Source: Thermoleophilia bacterium (GTDB lineage Bacteria; Actinomycetota; Thermoleophilia; Gaiellales; Gaiellaceae). Taken from it: DNA of 29,984 nt. The stretch spans positions 1 through 29,984 of the forward strand of contig JACVRU010000001.1 of assembly GCA_014534295.1 (NCBI GenBank). The letters are read 5' to 3'. Positions 3,344 to 13,845 of the stretch are shown one piece after another. Every line of letters begins with the position of its first letter. The stretch's first letter is position 1. Position numbers and translations under genes: made by a program. The notes beneath the pieces were generated by a model. It saw only the letters and a program-made list of their open reading frames with translations, had not been told where the DNA came from and did no database searches.

Positions 3344-3885
3344 CAGCGCGCGCGGAAGCAGGCGGCGACGTGGTCGTCGACGAGGCCCGCCGCCTGCATG
3401 AGCGCGTAGCAGGTCGTGGGGCCGACGAAGCGGAAGCCGCGCCGTTTCAGCTCCTTGCTCAGCGCCCGCGACTCGCCCGTCTCGGCCGGGAGCTCCGCGA
3501 GCGAGCGCGGCCGGTTCACCCTCGGCTCGCCGCCGACCGCGCTCCAGAGCAGGTCCTCGAGCGGCACGTCGAGGGCGAGGATCGCGCGGGCGTTCGAGAT
3601 CGTCGACTCGATCTTCGCGCGGTTGCGGACGATGCCCGCGTCCGCGAGCAGACGCTCCACGTCGCGGTCGCCGAACCGGGCGACGCGCTCCGCGTCGAAG
3701 CCCTCGAATGCGCGTCGGTAGCCCTCCCGCTTCCGCAGGATCGTCGCCCAGGAGAGGCCGGCCTGCGCGCCCTCGAGCGTCAGGAGCTCGAACAGGTGGC
3801 GCGGGTCGCGCGACGGCGTGCCCCCCTCCTCGTCGTGGTACGCGACCATCAGCGGGTCGCTGCCCGCCCACTCGCACCGGCTCAC
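3343..3885 (-). CDS. tag: DNA-3-methyladenine glycosylase I
   Basis: CxW...YHD, LEGAQAGLSW, IVRNRAKI, FRFVGPTTCYALMQAAG, and a terminal DH...C zinc ligand pair. GTG start overlaps the upstream TGA. Confidence 0.95.
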   Translation of the reverse strand: MSRCEWAGSDPLMVAYHDEEGGTPSRDPRHLFELLTLEGAQAGLSWATILRKREGYRRAFEGFDAERVARFGDRDVERLLADAGIVRNRAKIESTISNARAILALDVPLEDLLWSAVGGEPRVNRPRSLAELPAETGESRALSKELKRRGFRFVGPTTCYALMQAAGLVDDHVAACFRAR

Positions 3886-5729
3886 CTCGCGAGGGCTCGT
3901 GCCAGGATCTCCTCGACGACCTCCGACTTGGCGTCAGCGTAATGCTGGACGTAGCGCCACGTCCGCGCGGCGAGGTCGCGCTTCGTCCGCAGGTACAGCT
4001 CGCGGTCGGCGACGTCGGCGCGTAGGTGGTCGCGGAAGGCGAGCATTCGCTCGATCTCGGCCGAGCCGGCGGTGAAGACGTGCAGGTTCACGTCGGTGTC
4101 GGGCCCCTTGAAGGCGCGGTGCTCGAACCAGTCGGGCTCGCGGATGCGAAGCACGTAGCCCGCGGCCTCGAGCTGCGGCGCGTAGGACGGCTCGTCCGCG
4201 GAGTCCTCGACCGCGAGCACGATGTCGACGATCGGCTTCGCCGGCAGTCCGGGCACCGAGGTCGAGCCGACGTGCTCGACGAGCAACGCCCGCCCGCCGA
4301 GCGCCGCGCGGATCCGCTCCTCCTCGCACGCGTAGAGCTCGGGCCAGCGCGGGTCGTACTCGGCGAGGACGACCTCTCCGTCCAGCGGCTTCGGGTCGCC
4401 GATCCAGGCTCCGGCCAGGTTCGCCTCCCGCAGACGCTCCACCGCGGCGAGGAGGTTGACGCGGCCGGCGCCGAACGTGGCGACGTAGGCGGAGACCGTC
4501 GGCGGCCGCCACGCCGGTACGCCCGTCTCGACGACGACAGCGTCGGGATGCGCCTCGGCGAGAGCCCGCTGCTCCGGATGCCGGTGGGCGTCGCGGAGCA
4601 CGACCACGTGACGGCCCTGGGCGCCGACTCGGGGGATCAGCGCGCCGAGCGACGAGGGCACGTCGCCGGCCACGATCGTCGGCTCCGCCGACGCCTCCAC
4701 GACGACCGGCGGCCAGGAGACGTAGGGCTCGCCCTCGACGAGGAGCGCCCGGCGCGCGGCCTCGAGCCCGACCGTGCGGTCCTCGGTCGCCGTTCCCGCG
4801 ACGCGGACGCCCGCCACCCGCGCCGCCGCCTCGGCGAGCCGCTCCTCCGGCACCCGCTCCTCGAGGGCCCGCATCACCTCCTCGATCACGTCATCGCCGA
4901 GGTCGTGGCCCAGGCAGACTGCGTCCGCGCCGGCCGTGACCGCTCTGACCGCGGCCTCGCCCACGCCGGTCGTGGCGCTGATCGCCGCCATCTCGAGCGC
5001 GTCGGTGACGACGAGCCCGCCGAAGCCGAGCTCTTCCCTGAGGAGGTCGTGGAGCACGTGGCTGCTGAGGGTCGCCGGCGCGTCGTCGAGTGACCGGACG
5101 ACGAGGTGGGCGCTCATGATCGCGCGGACGCCCGCGTCGATCGCGGCCCGGAAGGGCAGCAGCGCCTCCGGGCGGAGGTCCTCGACGACCGGTAGCGCCA
5201 CGTGCGAGTCCTCGGCTGCTTCCCCGTGGCCGGGGAAGTGCTTCGCGCAGGCGGCCACCCCGGCGGCCTGGAGCCCCGTCACGAACGCGGCCACGTGCCG
5301 CGCGACGAGCTCCGGCTCGGAGCCGAACGAGCGCACGCCGACGATCGGGCTCGCCGGGTTCGCGAGCAGGTCGGCGACCGGCGCGAGGTCGAGGTCGATG
5401 CCGGCCGTCCGCAGGTCGGAGCCGAGGGCAGTCGCGACGCGGCGGGTGAGCTCGACGTCGTCGAACGTGCCGAGAGCCAGGTTGCCGGGATACGAGCTTC
5501 CCGTCGCCGCCTCGAGCCGCGTGACGTCCCCGCCCTCCTCGTGGACCGCCACGACCACCGCCGGGTTCTCGCCCCGCAGCGCAGCCGTCAGCCCGGCGAC
5601 CTGCTCCGCGTCGGCCACGTTCCAAGCGAAGAGGACTACTCCGCCCAGCCCCTCCTGGAGCCGCCGCCGCAGCCAGTCGGGCGGCTCGGGCCCCGGGAAG
5701 CCGGCGAAGACGCAGGCAGCGGCGTTCAC
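3882..5729 (-). CDS. GH3 beta-N-acetylhexosaminidase-like (NagZ-type) domain fused in frame to a C-terminal GrpB/UPF0157 domain
   Basis: GH3 motifs RSFG, KHFPGHG, DSH and TDALEM. Then, with no stop, YDPRWP...EHVGSTSVPGLPAKPIVDI...NLHVF...FRDHLR, typical of GrpB. Start taken at GTG 5729; 5756 is possible. Confidence 0.85.
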   Translation of the reverse strand: MNAAACVFAGFPGPEPPDWLRRRLQEGLGGVVLFAWNVADAEQVAGLTAALRGENPAVVVAVHEEGGDVTRLEAATGSSYPGNLALGTFDDVELTRRVATALGSDLRTAGIDLDLAPVADLLANPASPIVGVRSFGSEPELVARHVAAFVTGLQAAGVAACAKHFPGHGEAAEDSHVALPVVEDLRPEALLPFRAAIDAGVRAIMSAHLVVRSLDDAPATLSSHVLHDLLREELGFGGLVVTDALEMAAISATTGVGEAAVRAVTAGADAVCLGHDLGDDVIEEVMRALEERVPEERLAEAAARVAGVRVAGTATEDRTVGLEAARRALLVEGEPYVSWPPVVVEASAEPTIVAGDVPSSLGALIPRVGAQGRHVVVLRDAHRHPEQRALAEAHPDAVVVETGVPAWRPPTVSAYVATFGAGRVNLLAAVERLREANLAGAWIGDPKPLDGEVVLAEYDPRWPELYACEEERIRAALGGRALLVEHVGSTSVPGLPAKPIVDIVLAVEDSADEPSYAPQLEAAGYVLRIREPDWFEHRAFKGPDTDVNLHVFTAGSAEIERMLAFRDHLRADVADRELYLRTKRDLAARTWRYVQHYADAKSEVVEEILARALAR

Positions 5730-5769
5730 TGGGCGGCTCGGCGAAATGCGGGGCACTTCGCGGGGTCGA

Positions 5770-6001: not shown

Positions 6002-6443
6002 CAAGACCTACCTGAACCAGCTCGCCGCCCTGGGGCTCCGCGCGGCTCACGCGGCCGGCCGCGGCGCCGGGTTCTGCGACCAGCTCCGCGCCGTGGCGGC
6101 CCCGATCGGGCCGCTCGTCGAGCGGCTGGAGGGCGGCTGCCGGAGCTCGCGCTTCCGTTCGGGTTCGTCGGACGGAGTTCGTGATCGGCCGCGGGCCCCC
6201 AGTTCGCCACCGCGCGGGAGATCGCGCTCAAGCTCCTCGAGACCGGCTGGATCGCGGCCGAGCGGCTGACGGCGACGGACCTCGCCCACGGGCCTGTCCC
6301 CGTCCCGACGGCACCGTCCCCCCTCGTCTCGCCCCTGCTCTCGGTCGTCCCGGGCCAGCTCTTCGCCTGGGCGGTCGCCCGCGCGAAGGGCCTCGACCCG
6401 GACCGGCCCAACAGGGCTCGAGAAGGTCACGCTCGCCCTTTAG
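5997..6443 (+). pseudogene. Degraded SIS-domain (GlmS-isomerase-like) amino-sugar phosphate enzyme fragment
   Basis: Across several frames: ATKTYLNQLAAL...ELALPFGFVGR / FVIGRGP / QFATAREIALKLLE...TDLAHGP [internal deletion] SPLLSVVPGQLFAWAVARAKGLDPDRP / GLEKVTLAL*. N-terminus absent, at least 3 frameshifts. Confidence 0.8.
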
Positions 6444-7396
6444 CCCCTCCGCCAGGAGGGCTCGCTTCCTGGCCCCACGCGGCGCGCTCCCCTGCCGTCG
6501 GCGCGGACCACCCAGATCTCCACGCGACCGTCCGCAGACAGGCGGGTGAACGCGATGAGGCGGCCGTCGGGGGAGTAGCGCGGGTGGAACTCGTCGCTGC
6601 GCGGAAGGTCGAGGAGGACGCGCTGACCCCGGCCGTCGGCTCGCATCGTCCACAGCGCCCCGCCGCCGCTGCGGTTGCTCGTGAACACGATCGTCCTCCC
6701 GTCGGGCGACCAGTCGGGCATGCCGTCGTCCCCGAGGACCTCAACGCCGCCGGCCGTCCGCGTGAGCCTACGCAGGCCGGTGCCGTCCGGCCGGATCGAG
6801 TAGAGCTCCGGATTCTCCGGCGTCGGGCCCGCGCTCGAGAAGACGATGCGGTCGCCGGCGGGCGACCAGGCGGGGCCGAAGCTCCCCTGGTTCGGCCGCC
6901 CGAGTCGGGTGACGCGGAGGACGCCGCTGCCGTCGGCGTTCGCGACGTAGATGTCGAACGCACCCGAGCGGTCGCTGGTGAATGCAATCCGCCGGCCGTC
7001 CGGCGACCACGAGGGCGTCAGCTCCTCGGCCCGGTGGCGGGTCAGCCGCCTGAGGCCGGTGCCGTCGGCGCGCATGGCGTAGAGCTCAGCATTGCCGTGC
7101 CGGTAGCCGACGAACATCAGCTGCGCGCCGTCGGGCGACCAGGCGGGGGCGTACTCGTGGGCGGGCGACCGGGTCAGGTTGCGCAGCCCGGTGCCGTCAC
7201 TGCGGGCGACGTAGATCTCCCGGCCGCGCTCGAAGGCGAGCTCGGCCGGCGTGGGCACTGCGGCGCCGGCCAGGACGGGAAGGCGCCATAGGACGCCCGC
7301 CGCGAGCACGAGGGCCGCGGCGGCCAAGCCGAGCGCAGCCAGGAAGAGCCCGCGGCTGGCTCGGCGGAGGCGAGCGATCTCGAGGTCAGTGGGCAC
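6440..7396 (-). CDS. PD40/TolB-like six-bladed beta-propeller protein with N-terminal hydrophobic anchor or signal
   Basis: SD AAGGAGG before the GTG. Six repeats: PAWSPDG, PSWSPDG, PAWSPAG, PDWSPDG, PRYSPDG, PSWRRG. Confidence 0.9.
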   Translation of the reverse strand: MPTDLEIARLRRASRGLFLAALGLAAAALVLAAGVLWRLPVLAGAAVPTPAELAFERGREIYVARSDGTGLRNLTRSPAHEYAPAWSPDGAQLMFVGYRHGNAELYAMRADGTGLRRLTRHRAEELTPSWSPDGRRIAFTSDRSGAFDIYVANADGSGVLRVTRLGRPNQGSFGPAWSPAGDRIVFSSAGPTPENPELYSIRPDGTGLRRLTRTAGGVEVLGDDGMPDWSPDGRTIVFTSNRSGGGALWTMRADGRGQRVLLDLPRSDEFHPRYSPDGRLIAFTRLSADGRVEIWVVRADGRGARRVGPGSEPSWRRG

Positions 7397-7420
7397 GGTG
7401 GGTCCTCCTTGGGACGGGGG

Positions 7421-7788
7421 TCAGCGGACGAGGAGCTCGGAGACAGTGACGGCGCGCAGGTTCCTCCGAGCGAGTTCCCGCAGGAGCCAGTCGAGCGCCT
7501 CGAGGGTCGCGCGGCCGTGGTCGTGGAAAAGGACGATCCCGCCGGGGCCAGCTGGCTGCGGATCCGGGCGATCAGCCGGTCCGCGGTCGGGTGGCGCCAA
7601 TCCTCCCGTGTCGACGCTCCAGAGGATCTGGCGCAGCCCGAGCTGGCGATCGCGTCGCCAGGCCCGTCGCGGAGCCCGCACGGGGGGCTGGAAGAGTATG
7701 GGCCGGGTGCCGGTGGTGCGCTGGATGCGGTCGACCTCGGCTCGGCGGCGAGGAGGGCGGCGGCGAGCGCTCTCGTTCGCTTCGGCAT
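7421..7788 (-). pseudogene. Internally deleted, frameshifted NodB-type polysaccharide deacetylase
   Basis: Signal-like MPKRTRALAAALLAA joins directly to AEVDRIQRTTGTRPILFQPP...ILWSVDT / EDWRHPTADRLIARIRSQLAP / GGIVLFHDHG...TVSELLVR*. The catalytic TFDDG and HxxxH region is missing. Confidence 0.8.
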
Positions 7789-7841
7789 GCCCGTAGCCTC
7801 GCGCCGCGCGGACGCGATCGAATCGGGCGGGTGCCTAGGAC
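7789..7841 (-). promoter_or_regulatory. Putative activator box plus -10 element of a leaderless promoter (copy 1)
   Basis: On the minus strand: GTCCTAGGCACCCGCCCGATTCGA, then 29 nt ending GAGGCT-ACGGGC, then ATG. Matches copy 2 in sequence and spacing. Confidence 0.5.
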
Positions 7842-7847
7842 CGGTGG

Positions 7848-10598
7848 CTAGTAGTCGTCAGCAACCTCGGCGGCGACGGCCGCGCCCGCCACCCTGCCCT
7901 CCGCCACGAGACGCGTCAGCTCGGTGCGGGAGGAGACGCCGAGCTTCGCGAACACCTTGCGCAGGTGGTACTGGACCGTCTTCGGGCTCAGGAAGAGCTG
8001 CGCGCCGACCTCCGGGTTCGTCCTGCCGAGCGCGACGAGCCGCACGATCTGGAGCTCCTGAGGCGTAAGGTCGCTGCGCGTGCTGTCGTCCCGCTTCCGG
8101 GCGGTCGCGCCGGTCGCGCGCAGCTCGGCGAGCGCGCGCTCGGCCCAGAGGCGCGCTCCGAGGCTCTCGAAGGCCTCGAGCGCCTGGCGGAGCTCGTCGC
8201 GGGCCTCGGTCTTGCGACGGGCGCGCCTCAGGAACTCGCCGTAGAGGAGCCTGGTTCGCGCCGTCTCGAACGGCGAGCCGTCCCGCCCGTGCAGCTCGAG
8301 CGCCTGCTGGAACCGGCGCTCGGCCTCGGCCTCGTCCTCGGCGACGAGCGCGCCGCCGCGCGCGACAAGCGGCTCCGCCCAGCTCAGACCGCCGGACCGG
8401 CTCCAGTCGGCGAGCGTCTCGAGCGACCGGCGCGCAGCCTCGACCTTCCCCGCGCGGGCGGCGGCCTCGACGAGCAGCGGCGCCGAGAAGAGGGCGTACG
8501 GATGGTTCCGCCGCCGGTCGTCCGGGCCGCCGACGCTCGACTCGAGGATCGCCAGCGCCTCCGCCGCGCGCCCCTGGACGAGCTCGAGCTCCGCCAGCGC
8601 CCGTGCGACGCCGCCGAGGGCCACCGGCAGGCCGCGCGGCTGCGCGAGCGCGCGCGTCTCGGCCGCGAGCTTCTGCGCTCGCTCCCGGTCGCCGCGGAAG
8701 GCGGCGAGCGCGGTCAGCGTCGACAGCGCGCCCGCGGCGACGACCCGCTGGCCGGTCTCGACCGCGAGCCGGTGGCTCTCCTCGGCGTCCGCCTCCGCGC
8801 CGGCGAAGTCCCCCAACCGGCGCTCGACGCCCGCTAGGAGGTGCAGGAGGAACGCGAGCCCCCCGAACGCGCCCCGGGTCCGGGCGGCATCCACCGCGCG
8901 GCGCATGAGCTCGAACACGAGGCCCTCCTCGCCGAGGAACATCGCCGACGTCGCGGCCCAGCGAAGGATCCTGGGGTCGTCGGCAGCCCTGCCGGCGTGA
9001 GCCGAGCGTGCGAGGAGAGGCGCAGCGCCGGCGCGGTCGCCGCCAGCGATCGCGGTGAAGCCGCGCACGAGGCCGAGGACGATCTCCTCCTCGGTCGTCT
9101 CGGGAGCGCCGAACCGGTCGGCCCAGGACTCGAACTCAAGGATCGCGTCGTGGTTGCCTGCGAGGCCCGCCGCCTCCTGGGCGAGCGCCACGAGGTCGAG
9201 GGTCAAGCGGCGGTCGACGTCGAGCGCGTCCGAGGCCGCGTCGAGGAAGATGCGCATCGACTCGTCGAGCCTCCCTTCGCGCGCCGCGAGCATGCCGCGC
9301 ACGCGGGCGGCCGCGAGCGCGACGACCGGATCCTCGATCGGCTCCTCGATCTGCTCGAGCAGCACGCGGATGTGCTCCTGCCCCCCAGCCATGTGCGCCG
9401 CGTCGGCTGCCTGGACCAGCCGGCGCGTGCGGCCGGCCCGGTCCGCGGAGAGCTGAGCGGCGCGCTCGAGCGCGGCCGCCGCAGCGGCGTACCCGCTGCG
9501 GGCCGTCGCCCGGCCGGCGGACGTCTCGAGCAGCCGCGCCACCGCCTCGTCGGGCCCGATCGTCGCGGCGGCGCGGTGCCAGGCCCGCCGGTCGAGCTCG
9601 TGCTCTCCAGAGAGCACGGCGGCGAGCGCCGCATGGGCCGCGCGGCGGCGCGCGAAGGTCGCCGACCGGTACGCGACGCTGCGGACGAGGGGATGCCGGA
9701 ACGCCACGGTGTCCGCCTCGACGCGGACGAGCCCGGCGAGCTCCGCCGGCTCGAGCGCGGCCAGGCCGGCGCCGAGCGACTCGGCCGCCGCGACGACCCG
9801 CCCGAGCTCGACCGACTGGTCGGCCGCAGCGACAAGGAGGAACGTCCGCGTCAGCTCGGGGAGCCGCTCGATCGCCTCGAGGTACGCCTGCTCGACCGTC
9901 GTCGTGCCGTCCGCCCCGCGCGCGGCGGCGTCCGCGAGCTCGACGAGCGCGAGCGGGTTGCCCGCGGCGGCCTCGACGATCTCCCCCCGCCGGGCCCTGA
10001 GACCCTCGCCGTGGCGCGCCGCGACGAGCTGCTCGGCTTCCGCCCTCGCCAGGGGCGTCAGGCGAAGCTCACAGGCCCCGGGCAGTCTGGTAGCGCCCGC
10101 GTCGGAGTCGCGGGCGGCCAGGACGACGCCGACGCGCTCGGCCTGGAGCCGGCGGACCGCGAACGTGAGCGCGTCCGCAGACTCGGGATCGACCCAGTGC
10201 ACGTCGTCGACGAGCACGAGCAGCGGCCGCTCCTCGGCCGCGTCGGCGAGGAGCGTCAGCACGGCGAGCCCGACGAGGAGGCGGTCGGGCTCCGCCCGCG
10301 CGGCGAGGCCGAAGGCCGCCCTCAACGCGTCCGCCTGCGGCGCCGGGAGGTCGTCGACGCGGGCGAGCAGCGGCTGGAGGAGCTGGTGCAGCGTCGCGTA
10401 GGGCAACCTCGCCTCCGACTCGAAGCCCGCGGCCCGGAGCACCCGGAAGCGCTCGGCGCGCCGATCCGCCTCGTCGAGCAGCGCGGTCTTTCCGAGACCC
10501 GGGCCGCCGCGGACGGCTATAACGCCGCTGGCGCCGCCGGCCGCGCGCTCGAGCAGCTCGACGATCGCGGCCACCTCGGATTGCCGCCCAACCAGCAT
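7848..10598 (-). CDS. Large ATP-binding LuxR-family (LAL; AAA/STAND plus C-terminal LuxR HTH) transcriptional regulator
   Basis: LVGRQSE start, Walker A GGPGLGKT, Walker B LVLVDDVHW, AAGNPLALVEL, FRHPLVR, helical repeat region, C-terminal LTPQELQIVRLVALGRTNPEVGAQLFLSPKTVQYHLRKVFAKLGV. Confidence 0.95.
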   Translation of the reverse strand: MLVGRQSEVAAIVELLERAAGGASGVIAVRGGPGLGKTALLDEADRRAERFRVLRAAGFESEARLPYATLHQLLQPLLARVDDLPAPQADALRAAFGLAARAEPDRLLVGLAVLTLLADAAEERPLLVLVDDVHWVDPESADALTFAVRRLQAERVGVVLAARDSDAGATRLPGACELRLTPLARAEAEQLVAARHGEGLRARRGEIVEAAAGNPLALVELADAAARGADGTTTVEQAYLEAIERLPELTRTFLLVAAADQSVELGRVVAAAESLGAGLAALEPAELAGLVRVEADTVAFRHPLVRSVAYRSATFARRRAAHAALAAVLSGEHELDRRAWHRAAATIGPDEAVARLLETSAGRATARSGYAAAAAALERAAQLSADRAGRTRRLVQAADAAHMAGGQEHIRVLLEQIEEPIEDPVVALAAARVRGMLAAREGRLDESMRIFLDAASDALDVDRRLTLDLVALAQEAAGLAGNHDAILEFESWADRFGAPETTEEEIVLGLVRGFTAIAGGDRAGAAPLLARSAHAGRAADDPRILRWAATSAMFLGEEGLVFELMRRAVDAARTRGAFGGLAFLLHLLAGVERRLGDFAGAEADAEESHRLAVETGQRVVAAGALSTLTALAAFRGDRERAQKLAAETRALAQPRGLPVALGGVARALAELELVQGRAAEALAILESSVGGPDDRRRNHPYALFSAPLLVEAAARAGKVEAARRSLETLADWSRSGGLSWAEPLVARGGALVAEDEAEAERRFQQALELHGRDGSPFETARTRLLYGEFLRRARRKTEARDELRQALEAFESLGARLWAERALAELRATGATARKRDDSTRSDLTPQELQIVRLVALGRTNPEVGAQLFLSPKTVQYHLRKVFAKLGVSSRTELTRLVAEGRVAGAAVAAEVADDY

Positions 10599-10640
10599 GT
10601 GCGAATCCTCGCTCGCGCAGCGCGGCACGACAAGCCGGGA

Positions 10641-10694
10641 GGACCAGCCAGCCGGCTGATTCGAAGCCCCGCCGCGGCGGCCTAGGTTAAGCGC
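10641..10694 (+). promoter_or_regulatory. Putative activator box plus -10 element (TAGGTT) of a leaderless promoter (copy 2)
   Basis: GGACCAGCCAGCCGGCTGATTCGA, then 30 nt ending TAGGTT-AAGCGC, then ATG 10695. No SD. The TANNNT element lies 6 nt before the ATG. Confidence 0.55.
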
Positions 10695-11561
10695 ATGCAG
10701 ACGACCACGAAGCTCACTCAGGCGGCCCTCGCGGCAGCGGCGGCGGCTGCCTTGCTCGTCGGAGCAGCCCCGGCGTCCGAAGGCGCGGCCCGCGAAGGGC
10801 TGATCGCGTTCGAGCGGCGGACCGGCACCGGCGTGGCCGACATCTACGCCGTGCGCCCTGACGGGACCGGCCTCCGCCGGCTCACCCGCGACCGGCGCAG
10901 CTTCGACCCCGCGTGGTCGCCGGACGGCAGGCGGATCGCCTTTGCGAGCGACCGGGACGGCCCCTCAGGCGCCCCCGAGCTCTACATCATGAACGCGGAC
11001 GGCTCGAACGTCCGCCGGCTGACGACGAGCCCGCACGCCCCGGACGATTGGCGCGCGAGCTCGGCTCCGGCGTGGAGCCCCGACGGGAAGCGGCTCGTCT
11101 TCGTACGCCTGACGGTCCGCGGCAGCTCATCGAGCACGGACCTGTGGGAGGCGCGGGTCGACGGCTCGGGCCTCAGGCGCCTGACCGCGACGCGGGCCGC
11201 CGAAGGGTCGCCGGCGTACTCCTCGGCAGGAACGCTGTTCTTCGACCGCCGCGGAGTCGTCTACACGCTCGAGGGCTCCCCGCCCGTCGCGCGGAAGGTG
11301 GAACTCGGCACGAGCCCCGCCCTCGCCGTGGGCGGCGGGCCGCTCGCGTACGTGCGCGACGGCTTCGTCCGCGTGACGTACGGCGGTCCGGGACCCCGGG
11401 TCGCCCGTGGCAGCGACCCGGCCTGGGCGGCGGACGCCCGCCGACTCGCCTACGCAGGCTCCGACGGCCTCTTCACGATCGCCGCGGACGGCAGCCGGCG
11501 CCGTCGGGTGACGAGGACCGCGCCGCTCGTCCACGACCTCGCCCCGAGCTGGCGGCCATGA
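10695..11561 (+). CDS. Secreted PD40/TolB-like beta-propeller protein
   Basis: Ala-rich signal peptide, then repeats DPAWSPDG, APAWSPDG, SPAYSSAG, SPALAVGG, DPAWAADA, APSWRP. Confidence 0.9.
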   Translation: MQTTTKLTQAALAAAAAAALLVGAAPASEGAAREGLIAFERRTGTGVADIYAVRPDGTGLRRLTRDRRSFDPAWSPDGRRIAFASDRDGPSGAPELYIMNADGSNVRRLTTSPHAPDDWRASSAPAWSPDGKRLVFVRLTVRGSSSSTDLWEARVDGSGLRRLTATRAAEGSPAYSSAGTLFFDRRGVVYTLEGSPPVARKVELGTSPALAVGGGPLAYVRDGFVRVTYGGPGPRVARGSDPAWAADARRLAYAGSDGLFTIAADGSRRRRVTRTAPLVHDLAPSWRP

Positions 11562-11941
11562 GCGAGCTCGCGGTCCCCTACGTGCTCGACGACGGCGAAG
11601 GAGAGGTGATGCGCTGGCTCGGCGCCACTGTCACCGTCAAGGCCTCCGGGCCGAGCTTCGACCTGGCGCTCGCGATCGCTGTCGCGGGCGGAGAGCCTGC
11701 GCTCCGCTCGCACCCCGACCACGACAAGGGCCTGCTCGTGCTCGAGGGCGAGCTCACGATCGTCGCCGGCGACGAGGTGCTCGCGGCGCCTGCCGGCTCG
11801 TTCGCCTTCCTTCCGCGCGGCGTCCCGCACACGATCGCCGTCGAGTCCGGCCGCGCCCGGGTGGCCCTGATCCTCTCCCCTGCCGGCGCGATCTCGACCG
11901 ACGACGACCACCAATTCCCCCGAAAGGAGAACGCCTCATGA
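11558..11941 (+). CDS. Cupin-domain protein (metal motif looks degenerate)
   Basis: ATGA coupling at both ends. VLEGELTIVAGDE...GSFAFLPRGVPHT fits the cupin motifs. Confidence 0.75.
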   Translation: MSELAVPYVLDDGEGEVMRWLGATVTVKASGPSFDLALAIAVAGGEPALRSHPDHDKGLLVLEGELTIVAGDEVLAAPAGSFAFLPRGVPHTIAVESGRARVALILSPAGAISTDDDHQFPRKENAS

Positions 11942-12489
11942 ACGACACACGCATTCGGCTGCTCCGCCCCTCGCCCGCGCTGGTCGTCGCCTCCCTGGCG
12001 CTGCTGATCGCGCTCAGCGGGACGAGCTGGGCCGCCGTCGCGCTGCCGAGGGGGAGCGTCGGCACCCCGCAGCTGAAAGCCGGCGCCGTGACCTCCCCGA
12101 AGGTCAGGAACGGCTCCCTCCAGGCGATCGACCTCGCGCCCGCCGCACGGCAGCTCCTCAAGGGCCAGACCGGCCCGCAGGGCCCGGCCGGCCCTCGCGG
12201 CGAGCAGGGGCCGTCCGGCCTCAGGGGCCTGGAGCTCGTCACCGCGAGCTCTGCGTTCGACTCCGCCCGCGAGAAGACGGTCGTCGTCAGCTGCCCGCCC
12301 GGGAAGCGGCTCCTCGGCGGCGGCGGCGGAGCGTGGGGCCGCGCCATGATCTGGGTCACCGAGCGCGTGATACTGACCGCCAGCCAGCCACTCGACGACC
12401 ACACGTGGCTGGCGGCCGCACGCGAGCTCGATCCGACCGACGAGGACTGGTTCGTCCGCGTGACCGCCATCTGCGGATCCGTGAACTGA
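11938..12489 (+). CDS. Secreted protein with a short collagen-like (G-X-Y)8 segment
   Basis: Hydrophobic N-terminus PALVVASLALLIALSGTSWA, GQTGPQGPAGPRGEQGPSGLRGLE, C-terminal SCPPGKRLLGGG...AIC domain. Confidence 0.85.
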   Translation: MNDTRIRLLRPSPALVVASLALLIALSGTSWAAVALPRGSVGTPQLKAGAVTSPKVRNGSLQAIDLAPAARQLLKGQTGPQGPAGPRGEQGPSGLRGLELVTASSAFDSAREKTVVVSCPPGKRLLGGGGGAWGRAMIWVTERVILTASQPLDDHTWLAAARELDPTDEDWFVRVTAICGSVN

Positions 12490-12500
12490 AGGAGGGAGCG

Positions 12501-13351
12501 ATGAGGAAGCCGATCGCATCCGTCGCGGCGGTCGCGACCTCGGCGCTCCTGCTCCTCGGGCCCGCGGCCGGCTCGGCCGCGGGCACCGCGGGCCGCCCCG
12601 GCGACGTCGTCTTCGCGCGCACCGACGCCCGTACCGGCGCGAGCGACGTCTATCGGGTCGATCTCGACGGTCGCCGACCAGTCCACCAGACCGCGACTGG
12701 AGTCGACTTCAACCCCGCCTACGCGCCGGACGGGCGCCGGATCGCCTTCGCCAGCCGGCGGCGCGGCGACGCGCCCGAGATCTGGGTGATGGACGCCGCC
12801 GGCCGCAGCGTCGCCAGGGTCACGGGCAGCGCCCGCGCCGACGCGCGCGACCGGGACCGGCAGCCCGTGTGGGCGCCCGACGGGAGGTCGATCCTCTTCG
12901 TGCACGCGGACGACGGCGAGCGGTTCCGCCACGGACATCTGGCGGGTCGGCTCGCGCGACCGGCCGGGCGACGAACGTCACTCGCTCGCCCGGCGCCGAG
13001 ACCTGGCCGCCTTCGGGCCCGACGGCTCGCTGCTGTTCGTCCGGTCGCGCGCCATCACCGGGGCTTCGCCGCCGACCGGAAGCATTCGTCCGTCGCGGCA
13101 CGCAGCCGCACCTCGGTCCTGACACGGCTAGCTCGCCTTCGTCGAGGCGCGGCAGATATTCCTGACGCTCGGCCAGCGGGCCACGAAGGTCGCCGACGGC
13201 GCGTCCCCACGCTTGGACCGGCGACGGACCCCGCCTCGTGTACACGGCACCCGACGGCCTGCGCGTCGTCTCGGTCCCTGGTGGCGAGAGCCTCCGTGTC
13301 CCGCGGGCGGCCGGTTCGATCCGGGACGGCGCGCCAACCGTCCGGCCGCAG
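12501..13351 (+). pseudogene. Decayed paralog of the 10695..11561 PD40 protein
   Basis: SD GAAGGAGG and ATG, signal peptide, intact NPAYAPDG and QPVWAPDG repeats, then collinear fragments in shifting frames (SATDIWRV / VTRSPGAETWP / AFGPDGSLLFVR / GTQPHLGPD / *LAFVEAR / AWTGDGPRLVYTAPDGL...PTVRP). TAG at 13129-13131. Confidence 0.8.
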
Positions 13352-13397
13352 GCGGCGAGCCGCCGACCGCGGCCGAGACGCGGCACAATGTCAGGGA

Positions 13398-13469
13398 GCC
13401 CCCGTAGCTCAGTGGATAGAGCAGCGGTTTCCTAAACCGCGTGCGCTGGTTCGATTCCGGCCGGGGGCA
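13398..13469 (+). tRNA. tRNA-Arg (anticodon CCT)
   Basis: Acceptor GCCCCCG/CGGGGGC, D-arm GCTC-AGTGGATA-GAGC, anticodon arm GCGGT-TTCCTAA-ACCGC, T-arm GCTGG-TTCGATT-CCGGC. CCA not fully encoded (A-CCT). Possible -10 CACAAT at 13384-13389. Confidence 0.97.
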
Positions 13470-13485
13470 CCTCTCGCGGACGCGG

Positions 13486-13845
13486 TTACCGTGACGGGGC
13501 GCCGCGCGGGTCGTCCTCGACGAACTCCTCGACCTCCGGCAGCTTGTCGACGACGACGTAGCGCTCGTGCCGCTCCACGACTCGCTCGACGTCCGGGTGC
13601 TCGTGGCCCGCAAGGACGGCGAAGCGGTCGTCCTGCCGGCGGATCACGTCGTACTCCCCGAGTGTCATCTCGATGCGGCCCGTGCACGCACCTGCCACCC
13701 CGCACTCGCACACGAACTCGAAGACCTCGCTCTGCGGCGCGTCAGCCTGTCGGTTGAGCGCCGCACGGCGCTCGTTCACCTCCCGGAAGACCGCCTCGTT
13801 CGCGGCCTGACGCTCGTTCCTGCTCTGGCGGCGGGGTTCTCCCAT
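13486..13845 (-). CDS. Hypothetical protein with ANEAVFREVNE and FVCEC...C...GHE motifs
   Basis: GC-rich third positions. Motif pattern N-E-x-x-F-R-E-V-N-E / C-E-C-x5-C / PGH-like. ATG 13845 chosen; upstream starts exist. Confidence 0.8.
   Translation of the reverse strand: MGEPRRQSRNERQAANEAVFREVNERRAALNRQADAPQSEVFEFVCECGVAGACTGRIEMTLGEYDVIRRQDDRFAVLAGHEHPDVERVVERHERYVVVDKLPEVEEFVEDDPRGAPSR

What the first reader, a model, noticed from the sequence alone, without database searches (positions are those of the whole stretch)
7789..10694. Same promoter motif on both sides of the LAL regulator: a visible mini-regulon with leaderless targets
Seen: GGACCAGCCAGCCGGCTGATTCGA upstream of ATG 10695 (+) and GTCCTAGGCACCCGCCCGATTCGA upstream of ATG 7788 (-) match at 17/24 positions. 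They end in an identical GATTCGA 30 and 29 nt before the ATG, followed by TAGGTT or GAGGCT exactly 6 nt before the ATG. Neither gene has an SD. The box is centred near -42 if transcription starts at the ATG. Established: LuxR-type activators bind near -42, and leaderless mRNAs are common in Actinomycetota. Inference: this is the binding site of the intervening AAA-LuxR protein, driving both flanking units.
Basis: partly seen in the sequence, partly recalled or inferred. Interest (0 to 1): 0.7.

Follow-up and report, generated by a model that had tools for sequence, protein, structure and literature searches.

The report
Conserved promoter box flanking LAL regulator
A 21-base DNA box sits at a fixed distance in front of the genes on both sides of a large LuxR-type regulator gene, and related soil bacteria keep it in the same places, so it is very probably that regulator's docking site on two outward-facing promoters: a tidy, testable local gene switch of an ordinary kind.

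Summary
Inside this window alone it is not beyond chance: a 17/24 match occurs in about 7% of random 70-nt pairs. Comparison with other genomes settles it. The closest relatives of this AAA-LuxR (LAL) protein (55-64% identity, metagenomic contigs and one MAG) carry the same box, CTAG[GC]CAC[CT]C[GA][GC][CT]N-GATTCGA. In all nine copies from five loci it is followed after 17 nt (18 in one) by a NANNNT hexamer. In seven copies an ATG/GTG lies 6-7 nt after the hexamer; in the other two a ~35-nt leader with a strong SD follows. A matrix built only from six foreign boxes ranks the two window sites first and second in the whole 1.44-Mb assembly (32.5 and 25.6 bits; next 15.3). Boxes occur only at the LAL locus in both genomes scanned, and all point away from the LAL gene. 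The best reading is LAL-dependent promoters with the box at -51 to -31, mostly leaderless. Binding and transcription start sites are not shown. One correction: the ORF opened by ATG 7788 is not a credible gene. It runs out of frame over the 3' remnant of a CE4 deacetylase; the real downstream target is probably the PD40 gene at 7396. The plus-strand unit is an operon: PD40, cupin, ORF183. This is a new member of a known kind, of moderate interest.

The parts
10644..10664 (+).
   Evidence: 25.6 bits with a PWM built from six foreign boxes only, second-best site in the whole assembly
10683..10688 (+). -10-like hexamer TAGGTT (TANNNT), 18 nt after the box and 6 nt before ATG 10695
   Evidence: all nine homologous sites have NANNNT at 17-18 nt
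10695..11561 (+). PD40/TolB-like beta-propeller gene with signal peptide (PD40p). It is the first gene of the plus-strand unit and a predicted leaderless start. An in-frame TAG at 10683 leaves ATG 10695 as the only start that keeps the signal peptide.
   Evidence: Pfam PD40 1e-21
11558..11941 (+). Cupin_2 gene, start ATG overlapping the PD40p stop (ATGA). It is the orthologue of the cupin that sits directly at the box in L048 and L081.
   Evidence: tblastn 54% identity, 1e-35; Pfam
11938..12489 (+). 183-aa ORF, start overlapping the cupin stop (ATGA), AGGAG SD upstream; third gene of the operon
7848..10598 (-). LAL regulator gene (916 aa from ATG 10598): Walker A GGPGLGKT, AAA_16, TPR-like middle, GerE/LuxR HTH; stop TAG 7848-7850
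   Evidence: N-terminal alignment with relatives; clade-specific HTH TNPE...SPKTVQYHLRKVF
7818..7838 (-). Box B, 21-nt core CTAGGCACCCGCCCGATTCGA, 20/21 identical to the box downstream of the LAL in L048
   Evidence: 32.5 bits, best site in the assembly
7843..7851 (-). Second, upstream copy of the left half of the box (CTAGCCACC), 13 nt upstream of box B, overlapping the LAL stop codon
   Evidence: a similar copy 11-13 nt upstream at L048dn, L049dn, L090dn and L081a
7795..7800 (-). -10-like hexamer GAGGCT (NANNNT), 17 nt after box B and 6 nt before ATG 7788
7786..7788 (-). ATG at the predicted +1 of promoter B. The 204-codon ORF it opens (to 7174) is judged spurious or a relic.
   Evidence: no Pfam hit; GC1 low and GC2 high in that frame; overlaps the PD40 gene by 220 nt
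7421..7729 (-). 3' remnant of a CE4/NodB polysaccharide deacetylase gene (C-terminal ~110 residues, then stop TGA 7421-7423); the N-terminal half with the catalytic motifs is absent
   Evidence: PDB 7y51 E 9e-9, query 37-136 aligned to chain 101-201; full-length relatives are 266-398 aa and align only to 7406-7729
6440..7410 (-). PD40 beta-propeller gene with N-terminal membrane anchor (PD40m; GTG 7396, SD AAGGAGGA 7403-7410); probable real target of promoter B
   Evidence: Pfam PD40 1e-49; GC3 0.9-0.97; L049 has a PD40/Tricorn_N gene in the same relative place

Best explanation
The two boxes are the upstream halves of two outward-facing promoters that depend on the LAL regulator encoded between them. 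Each promoter has this layout: box (CTAGSCACYCRSYN-GATTCGA, about -51 to -31), a 17-18-nt unconserved spacer, a weak sigma-A-type -10 (NANNNT), then a start 6-7 nt later. There is no -35 consensus; the box occupies that place. In the proposed mechanism the LAL senses a ligand through its TPR-like domain and ATP-dependent oligomerisation. Its GerE-type HTH domains then dock on the box (and on a second left-half copy 13 nt upstream at site B) and recruit RNA polymerase. On the plus side transcription would start at the A of ATG 10695, giving a leaderless PD40-cupin-ORF183 operon. On the minus side it would start at 7788 and run through a CE4 gene remnant into the PD40 gene at 7396. Shown: the conserved box, its fixed geometry, its exclusive linkage to this LAL clade, and the gene models. 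Inferred: the position of the TSS, the identity of the binding protein, and activation rather than repression.
For: (1) There are nine boxes in five loci of the LAL clade (55-64% protein identity). 13 of 21 columns are invariant. Mean pairwise identity is 0.84 in the box against 0.36-0.40 in the flanks and spacer. (2) The geometry is constant. The spacer is 17 nt in eight sites and 18 in one, and all nine hexamers have A at position 2 and T at position 6. An ATG/GTG lies 6-7 nt later in seven; five of these open homology-supported genes (PD40p, two cupins, two homologous small Cys proteins). The two sites without a start codon there have AAAGGA SDs about 35 nt downstream. (3) Cross-validation: a PWM from six foreign boxes ranks the two window sites 1st and 2nd in G000, at 32.5 and 25.6 bits against 15.3 for the next. 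(4) Specificity: 214 kb around 36 non-clade LAL genes score at most 15.4 bits. No 0-1-mismatch copy was found in 400 genomes of the family, and the three 2-mismatch hits for which DNA was fetched (L059, L060, L075) are not next to a LAL or a box-type promoter. In the 2.5-Mb MAG G417 the only three boxes all lie at the LAL locus. (5) The distance from box to the outward start is fixed at 29-30 nt, while the distance to the LAL start varies from 33 to 69 nt. The first gene differs between loci (PD40 here, cupin in L048 and L081), yet promoter and +1 ATG are kept. (6) The clade shares HTH residues that differ from other LALs (TNPE, TVQYH). (7) No sigma-factor gene lies on the 30-kb contig, and no sigma-70 consensus promoter is found in the region. 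(8) Precedent: Actinoplanes MalT, a LAL, activates 17 promoters through a motif overlapping the -35 region (PMC7567727). In M. tuberculosis TANNNT lies 7-12 nt upstream of the TSS, there is no -35 motif, and leaderless mRNAs are many (PMC3898074).
Against: There is no binding data and no mapped 5' ends. The loci are related by descent, so nine boxes are fewer than nine independent events; L092 and L093 are only strain variants of L048. The box is not a palindrome, unlike most characterised LuxR-type sites. Five of nine -10 hexamers start with G rather than T. Box A is the most degenerate copy (2 mismatches to the consensus). G000 is only 57% complete, so further boxes may exist elsewhere. The ORF behind ATG 7788 is not a real gene, so leaderless translation is moot on that side. 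GAGG before 7788 could act as an SD if transcripts read through from the LAL gene, since only 59 nt separate the two and no terminator was predicted.
Confidence: 0.6

Rival explanations
1. The box is a promoter element read by something other than the adjacent LAL, such as the -35 element of an alternative sigma factor or the site of an unlinked transcription factor. The LAL would merely share the neighbourhood.
For: GATTCGA lies exactly where a -35 element would, 17 nt from the -10. G000 encodes at least 20 sigma-70-family proteins. No binding evidence ties the box to the LAL.
Against: The -10 is not conserved beyond NANNNT, whereas ECF-type promoters keep both elements. No sigma gene lies on the contig and no sigma domain appears among the Pfam hits listed for the clade loci. 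In two genomes the box occurs only beside this LAL clade, on both sides of it, although the flanking genes differ. It is absent from 214 kb around other LALs and, at 0-1 mismatch, from 400 related genomes.
Confidence: 0.15
2. The LAL binds the box as a repressor or operator that occludes the -35 region, as SCO6993 does in Streptomyces, rather than as an activator.
For: The site overlaps the -35 position, which suits occlusion. SCO6993 is a LAL that represses and binds its own promoter (PMC9628970). Box A lies 45 nt from the LAL start, so autoregulation is plausible.
Against: The promoters lack any -35 consensus and have weak -10s (five of nine begin with G). That is the signature of activator-dependent promoters, not of strong promoters that need repression. 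The position matches that of MalT-type activator sites (PMC7567727).
Confidence: 0.12
3. The two boxes are terminal inverted repeats or recombination sites of a mobile cassette that carries the LAL gene, not promoter elements.
For: The copies are in inverted orientation with GATTCGA outermost, and the genes just outside differ between loci.
Against: There is no transposase or integrase in any locus. In G417 a third box lies 1.9 kb from the LAL in the same orientation as the cupin box. The conserved -10 positions and start codons lie outside the 'repeat' at fixed distance. Cupin and PD40 synteny beyond the boxes is retained.
Confidence: 0.03
4. Chance similarity in GC-rich intergenic DNA.
For: The within-window statistics are weak: P about 0.07 without a fixed register, and the pair is not among the top 25 inverted repeats.
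Against: Conservation in orthologous loci and the cross-validated PWM ranking.
Confidence: 0.01

Closest known systems
MalT (LAL) regulon of Actinoplanes sp. SE50/110 (PMC7567727)
   Same: An actinobacterial LAL-type activator. A conserved motif overlaps the -35 region of neighbouring promoters at a near-constant distance from the TSS (3' end 34.4 +/- 1 nt there; 30-31 nt to the predicted TSS here). The motif is conserved in relatives while gene order varies.
   Different: That motif is a palindrome, TCATCC-N5-GGATGA, related to E. coli MalT boxes; the box here is unrelated in sequence and not palindromic. That regulon has 17 mapped TSSs and mutant data across 51 genes; here there are 2-3 promoters per genome, with no TSS or mutant data.
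E. coli/Klebsiella MalT boxes (as summarised in PMC7567727; details otherwise from memory)
   Same: A STAND/LAL activator whose proximal site replaces the -35 hexamer, with additional upstream copies in direct repeat. This resembles the extra CTAGSCACC half-copy 13 nt upstream at site B.
   Different: Different sequence (GGGGA[T/G]GAGG); proteobacterial; leadered mRNAs; the protein here is only distantly related.
LuxR/TraR-type class II promoters with a lux box centred at -42.5 (from memory, not checked here)
   Different: Lux boxes are 20-bp inverted repeats bound by a dimer of small acyl-HSL receptors; here the box is asymmetric and the protein is a 916-aa ATPase.
Streptomyces LAL SCO6993 (PMC9628970)
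   Same: LAL architecture; binds its own and target promoters.
   Different: It is a repressor with short dissimilar palindromes and no derivable consensus. Here a sharp 21-nt consensus exists, but without any biochemistry.
Leaderless sigma-A promoters of Mycobacterium tuberculosis (PMC3898074)
   Same: TANNNT 7-12 nt upstream of the TSS, no -35 consensus, start codon at +1, no SD.
   Different: Those were mapped experimentally; here the geometry is inferred, and five of nine hexamers are GANNNT.

Membership tests
[quoted passage not shown] | N-terminal P-loop NTPase domain with Walker A | tested here: met
   AAA_16 3.7e-19, above the cut-off; GGPGLGKT and hhhhDD (LLVLVDDVH) read in the translation
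[quoted passage not shown] | C-terminal LuxR/GerE helix-turn-helix | tested here: met
   GerE 1.1e-15, residues 853-907
[quoted passage not shown] | Large size (~900 aa) with a TPR-like sensor or arm region between the two domains | tested here: inconclusive
   916 aa; TPR_12 at 26.3 bits is below the 30.1 cut-off
[quoted passage not shown] | ATP- and inducer-dependent oligomerisation and DNA binding | not testable with these tools
   needs biochemistry
Activator-dependent (class II-like) promoter | Regulator site overlapping the -35 position at a fixed distance from the TSS | tested here: inconclusive
   The distance to the -10-like hexamer and start codon is fixed in nine of nine sites, but the TSS itself is not mapped.
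Activator-dependent (class II-like) promoter | Poor or absent -35 consensus and a suboptimal -10 | tested here: met
   No sigma-70 consensus match in 7300-10900; hexamers are [T/G]ANNNT
Activator-dependent (class II-like) promoter | Transcription depends on the regulator | not testable with these tools
   needs a reporter or mutant
Leaderless genes of Actinomycetota | -10 (TANNNT) ending 6-7 nt before the start codon, and no SD | tested here: met
   10695: TAGGTT + 6 nt + ATG, only AGG upstream. The same holds at L048up, L050up and L081b. GANNNT is found at the LAL-downstream sites.
Leaderless genes of Actinomycetota | mRNA 5' end at the start codon | not testable with these tools
   Only Logan contigs of soil metatranscriptomes were available; they cannot show ends.
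Leaderless genes of Actinomycetota | The start codon opens a genuine protein-coding gene | tested here: met
   Met for 10695 (PD40). NOT met for 7788: no family, off-frame composition, a CE4 remnant in another frame.
Mobile element bounded by terminal inverted repeats | Transposase or integrase inside, repeats only at the two ends | tested here: not met
   The only gene between the boxes is the LAL. G417 has a third box 1.9 kb away in direct orientation to the cupin box.

The most novel reading that the evidence does not exclude
The LAL gene and its two outward-facing box promoters behave as a conserved regulatory cassette whose +1 start codon is a fixed docking point. Different first genes have been exchanged onto the same leaderless ATG: PD40 here, cupin in L048 and L081, a small Cys protein or a CE4 gene on the other side. 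The promoter is kept base-for-base up to the ATG; PD40p and the L081 cupin even share ATGCAGA. This would be gene replacement at a leaderless promoter without loss of regulation. It would also give the first sharply defined, non-palindromic operator for a LAL clade in uncultured soil Actinomycetota.
Probability: 0.15. Interest if true: 0.55.

Novelty: new member of a known kind. Interest (0 to 1): 0.4.

Why it matters
LAL regulators are very numerous in Actinomycetota; at least nine matches to this protein occur in this half-complete genome. Very few have a defined DNA site, and the best-studied Streptomyces cases give no consensus (PMC9628970). Here sequence comparison alone yields a sharp 21-nt box, its position in the promoter, and a two-to-three-promoter regulon of secreted PD40 propellers, cupin/ABM-type enzymes, DUF3152 and DUF4396 proteins. 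That makes the regulator-operator pair directly testable by EMSA, DAP-seq or reporters in a lineage with no cultured model. It also gives a clean case for studying how a class-II-type activator works at leaderless promoters. The corrected gene model (a CE4 remnant, not a gene at 7788) matters for annotation.

Tried and rejected
1. Within-window statistics alone are not significant without a fixed register.
2. A genome-wide count of GATTCGA shows no enrichment.
3. Orthologue searches found only paralogues of <=44% identity without PD40 or CE4 synteny and without the box: 40 relatives, genome contigs and metagenome contigs; checked.
4. No true orthologues of PD40p were found in relatives.
5. A pattern scan of 400 family genomes at <=3 mismatches was noisy. 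There was no 0-1-mismatch hit. The three 2-mismatch hits for which DNA was fetched (L059, L060, L075) are not beside a LAL or a box-type promoter; the remaining 2-mismatch hits were not inspected.
6. P0004 and P0006 contigs gave gene lists but no DNA.
7. P0123 (L082, tandem LALs), P0124 (L083, only about 40 nt upstream of the likely LAL start, estimated by eye) and P0130 (L091, after an MFS gene) added no boxes.
8. The small Cys protein has no other homologues.
9. Soil metagenome and metatranscriptome runs held only short Logan contigs. Zero-mismatch pieces of the LAL, PD40m and the CE4 remnant occur in RNA libraries, but these show neither transcription nor 5' ends.
10. The sigma-70 and terminator scanner found nothing in 7300-10900.
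11. Rfam found no match in 7000-11000.
12. The LAL's own promoter could not be identified. GAGGAT lies 6 nt before its start, here and in L081, and may be an SD or a -10.
13. No convincing dyad symmetry was seen in the box on reading it.
14. Complex prediction and structure prediction were not used; they would not bear on protein-DNA binding.
Full report
WHAT IS AT THE COORDINATES. The window is a whole 29,984-bp contig (72% GC) of a 1.44-Mb, 57%-complete MAG. The names of the nearest database hits suggest a soil member of Actinomycetota; this is inference only. Between 7848 and 10598 on the minus strand lies a 916-aa protein with an AAA_16 P-loop domain, a TPR-like middle and a C-terminal GerE/LuxR HTH, which is a LAL-type regulator. 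Its start is ATG 10598, because the N-termini of its relatives align from there. They match at 17/24, GATTCGA ends 30 and 29 nt before ATG 10695 (+) and ATG 7788 (-), and TAGGTT and GAGGCT each lie 6 nt before the ATG.

IS IT MORE THAN CHANCE? Not on the window's own evidence.
- A best ungapped 24-mer match of >=17 arises in about 7% of random pairs of 70-nt pieces of this window, and in 0.7% if the register to the 3' end is fixed within +/-2 nt.
- The pair is not among the 25 longest of 366 inverted repeats in 7700-10800.
- GATTCGA is not over-represented in the genome (54 seen, 48 expected), and there is no third copy of the 24-mer.

COMPARATIVE EVIDENCE. The 40 nearest genomes and the two contig collections gave only paralogues (<=44% identity) without shared neighbours or box. 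The large protein collection revealed a small clade of true relatives at 57-64% identity, with everything else at 49% or below. DNA was available for the following loci.
- L048 (64% identity).
- L049 (60%, N-truncated).
- L050 (57%).
- A MAG contig L081 (N-terminal 387 aa, 55%). The rest of that gene lies on another contig of the same MAG, L090, at 64.5% identity.

Every one of these carries the box in the same places.
- Upstream of the gene divergent from the LAL: L048, L050, L081.
- Just downstream of the LAL stop codon: L048, L049, L090.
- In L081, a third copy 1.9 kb away before a DUF3152 gene.

The nine copies align without gaps to CTAG[GC]CAC[CT]C[GA][GC][CT]N-GATTCGA, with 13 of 21 columns invariant. 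Mean pairwise identity is 0.84 in the box, against 0.37 in the spacer, 0.36 further upstream and 0.40 just before the start. About 0.30 is expected from base composition (my arithmetic).

A position matrix built only from the six foreign boxes then known was scanned over both strands of the whole assembly. It puts box B (32.5 bits) and box A (25.6 bits) first and second, with the next site at 15.3 bits. L092 and L093 are strain-level variants of L048 from other samples and also keep both boxes.

GEOMETRY. In all nine sites GATTCGA is followed after 17 nt (18 in box A) by a hexamer with A at position 2 and T at position 6. The hexamers are TAGGTT, TAGCTT, TACGGT, TACCGT, GAGGCT, GAGTCT, GATCGT, GAGGGT and GAGCCT.
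- In seven sites an ATG or GTG follows 6-7 nt later.
- Five of those start codons open genes supported by homology: PD40p here, the cupins of L048 and L081, and the two homologous small Cys-rich proteins of L048 and L049.
- At 10695 an in-frame TAG at 10683 leaves no alternative start that keeps the signal peptide.
- The two sites without a start codon at that place (L081a before DUF3152, L090 before DUF4396) instead have an AAAGGA SD and an ATG about 35 nt further on.

Strong SDs occur where a leader is predicted, and little or no SD where the start codon sits at the predicted +1. This is what one expects if transcription starts 6-7 nt after the hexamer. That is the spacing of TANNNT promoters in M. 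tuberculosis, which also lack a -35 consensus and very often give leaderless mRNAs (PMC3898074).

LINKAGE TO THE LAL.
- The boxes always point away from the LAL gene.
- The distance from the box to the outward start is fixed (29-30 nt), whereas the distance to the LAL start varies from 33 to 69 nt.
- The flanking genes differ between loci while box, hexamer positions and +1 codon stay.
- In G000, and in the 2.5-Mb MAG G417 that holds L081 and L090, the only boxes are at the LAL locus.
- 214 kb around 36 other LAL genes score no higher than 15.4 bits.
- 400 genomes of the same family have no copy with 0-1 mismatch. The three 2-mismatch hits for which DNA was fetched (L059, L060, L075) are not beside a LAL.
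- The clade shares HTH residues that set it apart from other LALs: TNPE instead of NRE/NKE, and TVQYH instead of TVEYH/TIDYH. From memory of the DosR-DNA structure, the Q aligns with a base-contacting lysine; this was not checked here.
- No sigma-factor gene lies on the contig, although at least 20 are elsewhere in the assembly.

Together this makes the adjacent LAL by far the best candidate for the protein that reads the box. The lack of a -35 consensus and the weak -10s favour activation. The nearest documented case is Actinoplanes MalT, a LAL whose motif overlaps the -35 region of 17 mapped promoters with its 3' end 34.4 +/- 1 nt from the TSS (PMC7567727).

CORRECTIONS TO THE GENE MODELS.
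(a) The plus-strand unit is an operon. PD40p (10695-11561) is followed by a Cupin_2 gene whose ATG overlaps the PD40p stop (ATGA, 11558). A 183-aa ORF then overlaps the cupin stop in the same way (ATGA, 11938). That cupin is 54% identical to the cupins that sit directly at the box in L048 and L081. Synteny is therefore conserved, and in this genome a PD40 gene sits between the promoter and the cupin.

(b) The ORF opened by ATG 7788 is not a credible gene.
- It has no family.
- Its frame has low GC at codon position 1 and high GC at position 2.
- It overlaps the next gene by 220 nt.
- Another frame (7421-7729) encodes the C-terminal ~110 residues of a CE4/NodB polysaccharide deacetylase (PDB 7y51, E 9e-9, aligned to residues 101-201 of 204).
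- Full-length relatives are 266-398 aa and align only to 7406-7729. The TFDDGP and HxxxH motifs have no counterpart.

The relatives L048 and L049 have a small Cys-rich gene at this position instead. The simplest reading is that a deletion or rearrangement fused the promoter and its +1 ATG to the 3' part of a deacetylase gene.

The first intact gene downstream is the membrane-anchored PD40 protein at GTG 7396, which has a perfect AAGGAGGA SD. Its counterpart in L049 is a Tricorn_N/PD40 protein. Promoter B therefore probably gives a transcript with a ~390-nt leader that holds a gene relic.

OTHER DETAILS. A second copy of the left half of the box is seen 11-13 nt upstream at five sites.
- Site B: CTAGCCACC, overlapping the LAL stop codon.
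- L048dn: CTAGGCACC.
- L049dn: CTAGGCGCC.
- L090dn: CCAGCCGCA.
- L081a: CCAGCCGTA.

This is reminiscent of the multiple direct MalT boxes. Only 59 nt separate the LAL stop from ATG 7788 and no terminator is predicted, so read-through from the LAL gene is possible. Rfam finds nothing in 7000-11000.

WHAT IS NOT SHOWN. No TSS is mapped. The only public runs that hold this organism are soil metagenomes and metatranscriptomes kept as short contigs, which cannot show ends or even prove transcription. No binding evidence exists. The nine boxes descend from a few ancestral promoters and are not independent. G000 is incomplete.

DATA CAVEAT. Three of the nine boxes (L081a, L081b, L090dn) and the whole-genome scan of G417 rest on a genome flagged as unpublished. 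The remaining six boxes and the PWM test stand without it only in part: the PWM used two G417 boxes among its six. The 400-genome negative scan included the unpublished genomes G354, G130, G046, G127 and G059.

VERDICT. It is unproven as to the binding protein and the TSS, and wrong about the identity of the minus-strand target gene. This is a new member of a known kind of system, LAL activators with a site at the -35 position, as in MalT. It is notable mainly for how cleanly the operator and promoter geometry can be read from sequence.

Noticed in passing
window 7421-7729 (-): 3' remnant of a CE4/NodB polysaccharide deacetylase gene. The frame is open for 137 codons but lacks the N-terminal catalytic half, and RPPYG has degraded to QPPVR. 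Probably a deletion product fused to promoter B.
   Followed up: yes
window 6440-7396 (-), 10695-11561 (+), 12333-13757 (+): Three PD40/TolB-like beta-propeller paralogues lie within 7 kb around the LAL. The first two are 48% identical over the best 146-residue segment.
   Followed up: partly
L048:3295-3603 and L049:2133-2396: A homologous 87-102-aa Cys-rich protein (CxC...C, AHLSP.D, ADH motifs) sits at the leaderless start downstream of the LAL in two relatives. No other homologue was found among 5.8 billion proteins, and it is absent from this window.
   Followed up: partly
window 10695-10701 versus L081 cupin start: PD40p here and the cupin of L081 both begin ATGCAGA although the proteins are unrelated. 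This may mark where the first gene was exchanged at the leaderless ATG, or it may be coincidence.
   Followed up: no
window 10605-10610 (-) and L081 upstream of GTG 2981: GAGGAT lies exactly 6 nt before the LAL start codon in both genomes. It could be an SD (GAGGA) or a NANNNT -10 of a leaderless LAL mRNA.
   Followed up: no
window 3882-5756 (-): A single ORF combines a glycoside hydrolase family 3 N-terminal domain with a C-terminal GrpB domain.
   Followed up: no
window 11558-11561 and 11938-11941 (+): Two successive ATGA stop/start overlaps link PD40p, the cupin and ORF183, indicating translational coupling in one operon.
   Followed up: yes
G000 whole assembly: At least 9 matches to the LAL protein and 20 sigma-70-family genes occur in a 1.44-Mb, 57%-complete assembly, which is a high density of regulators for a small genome.
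   Followed up: no
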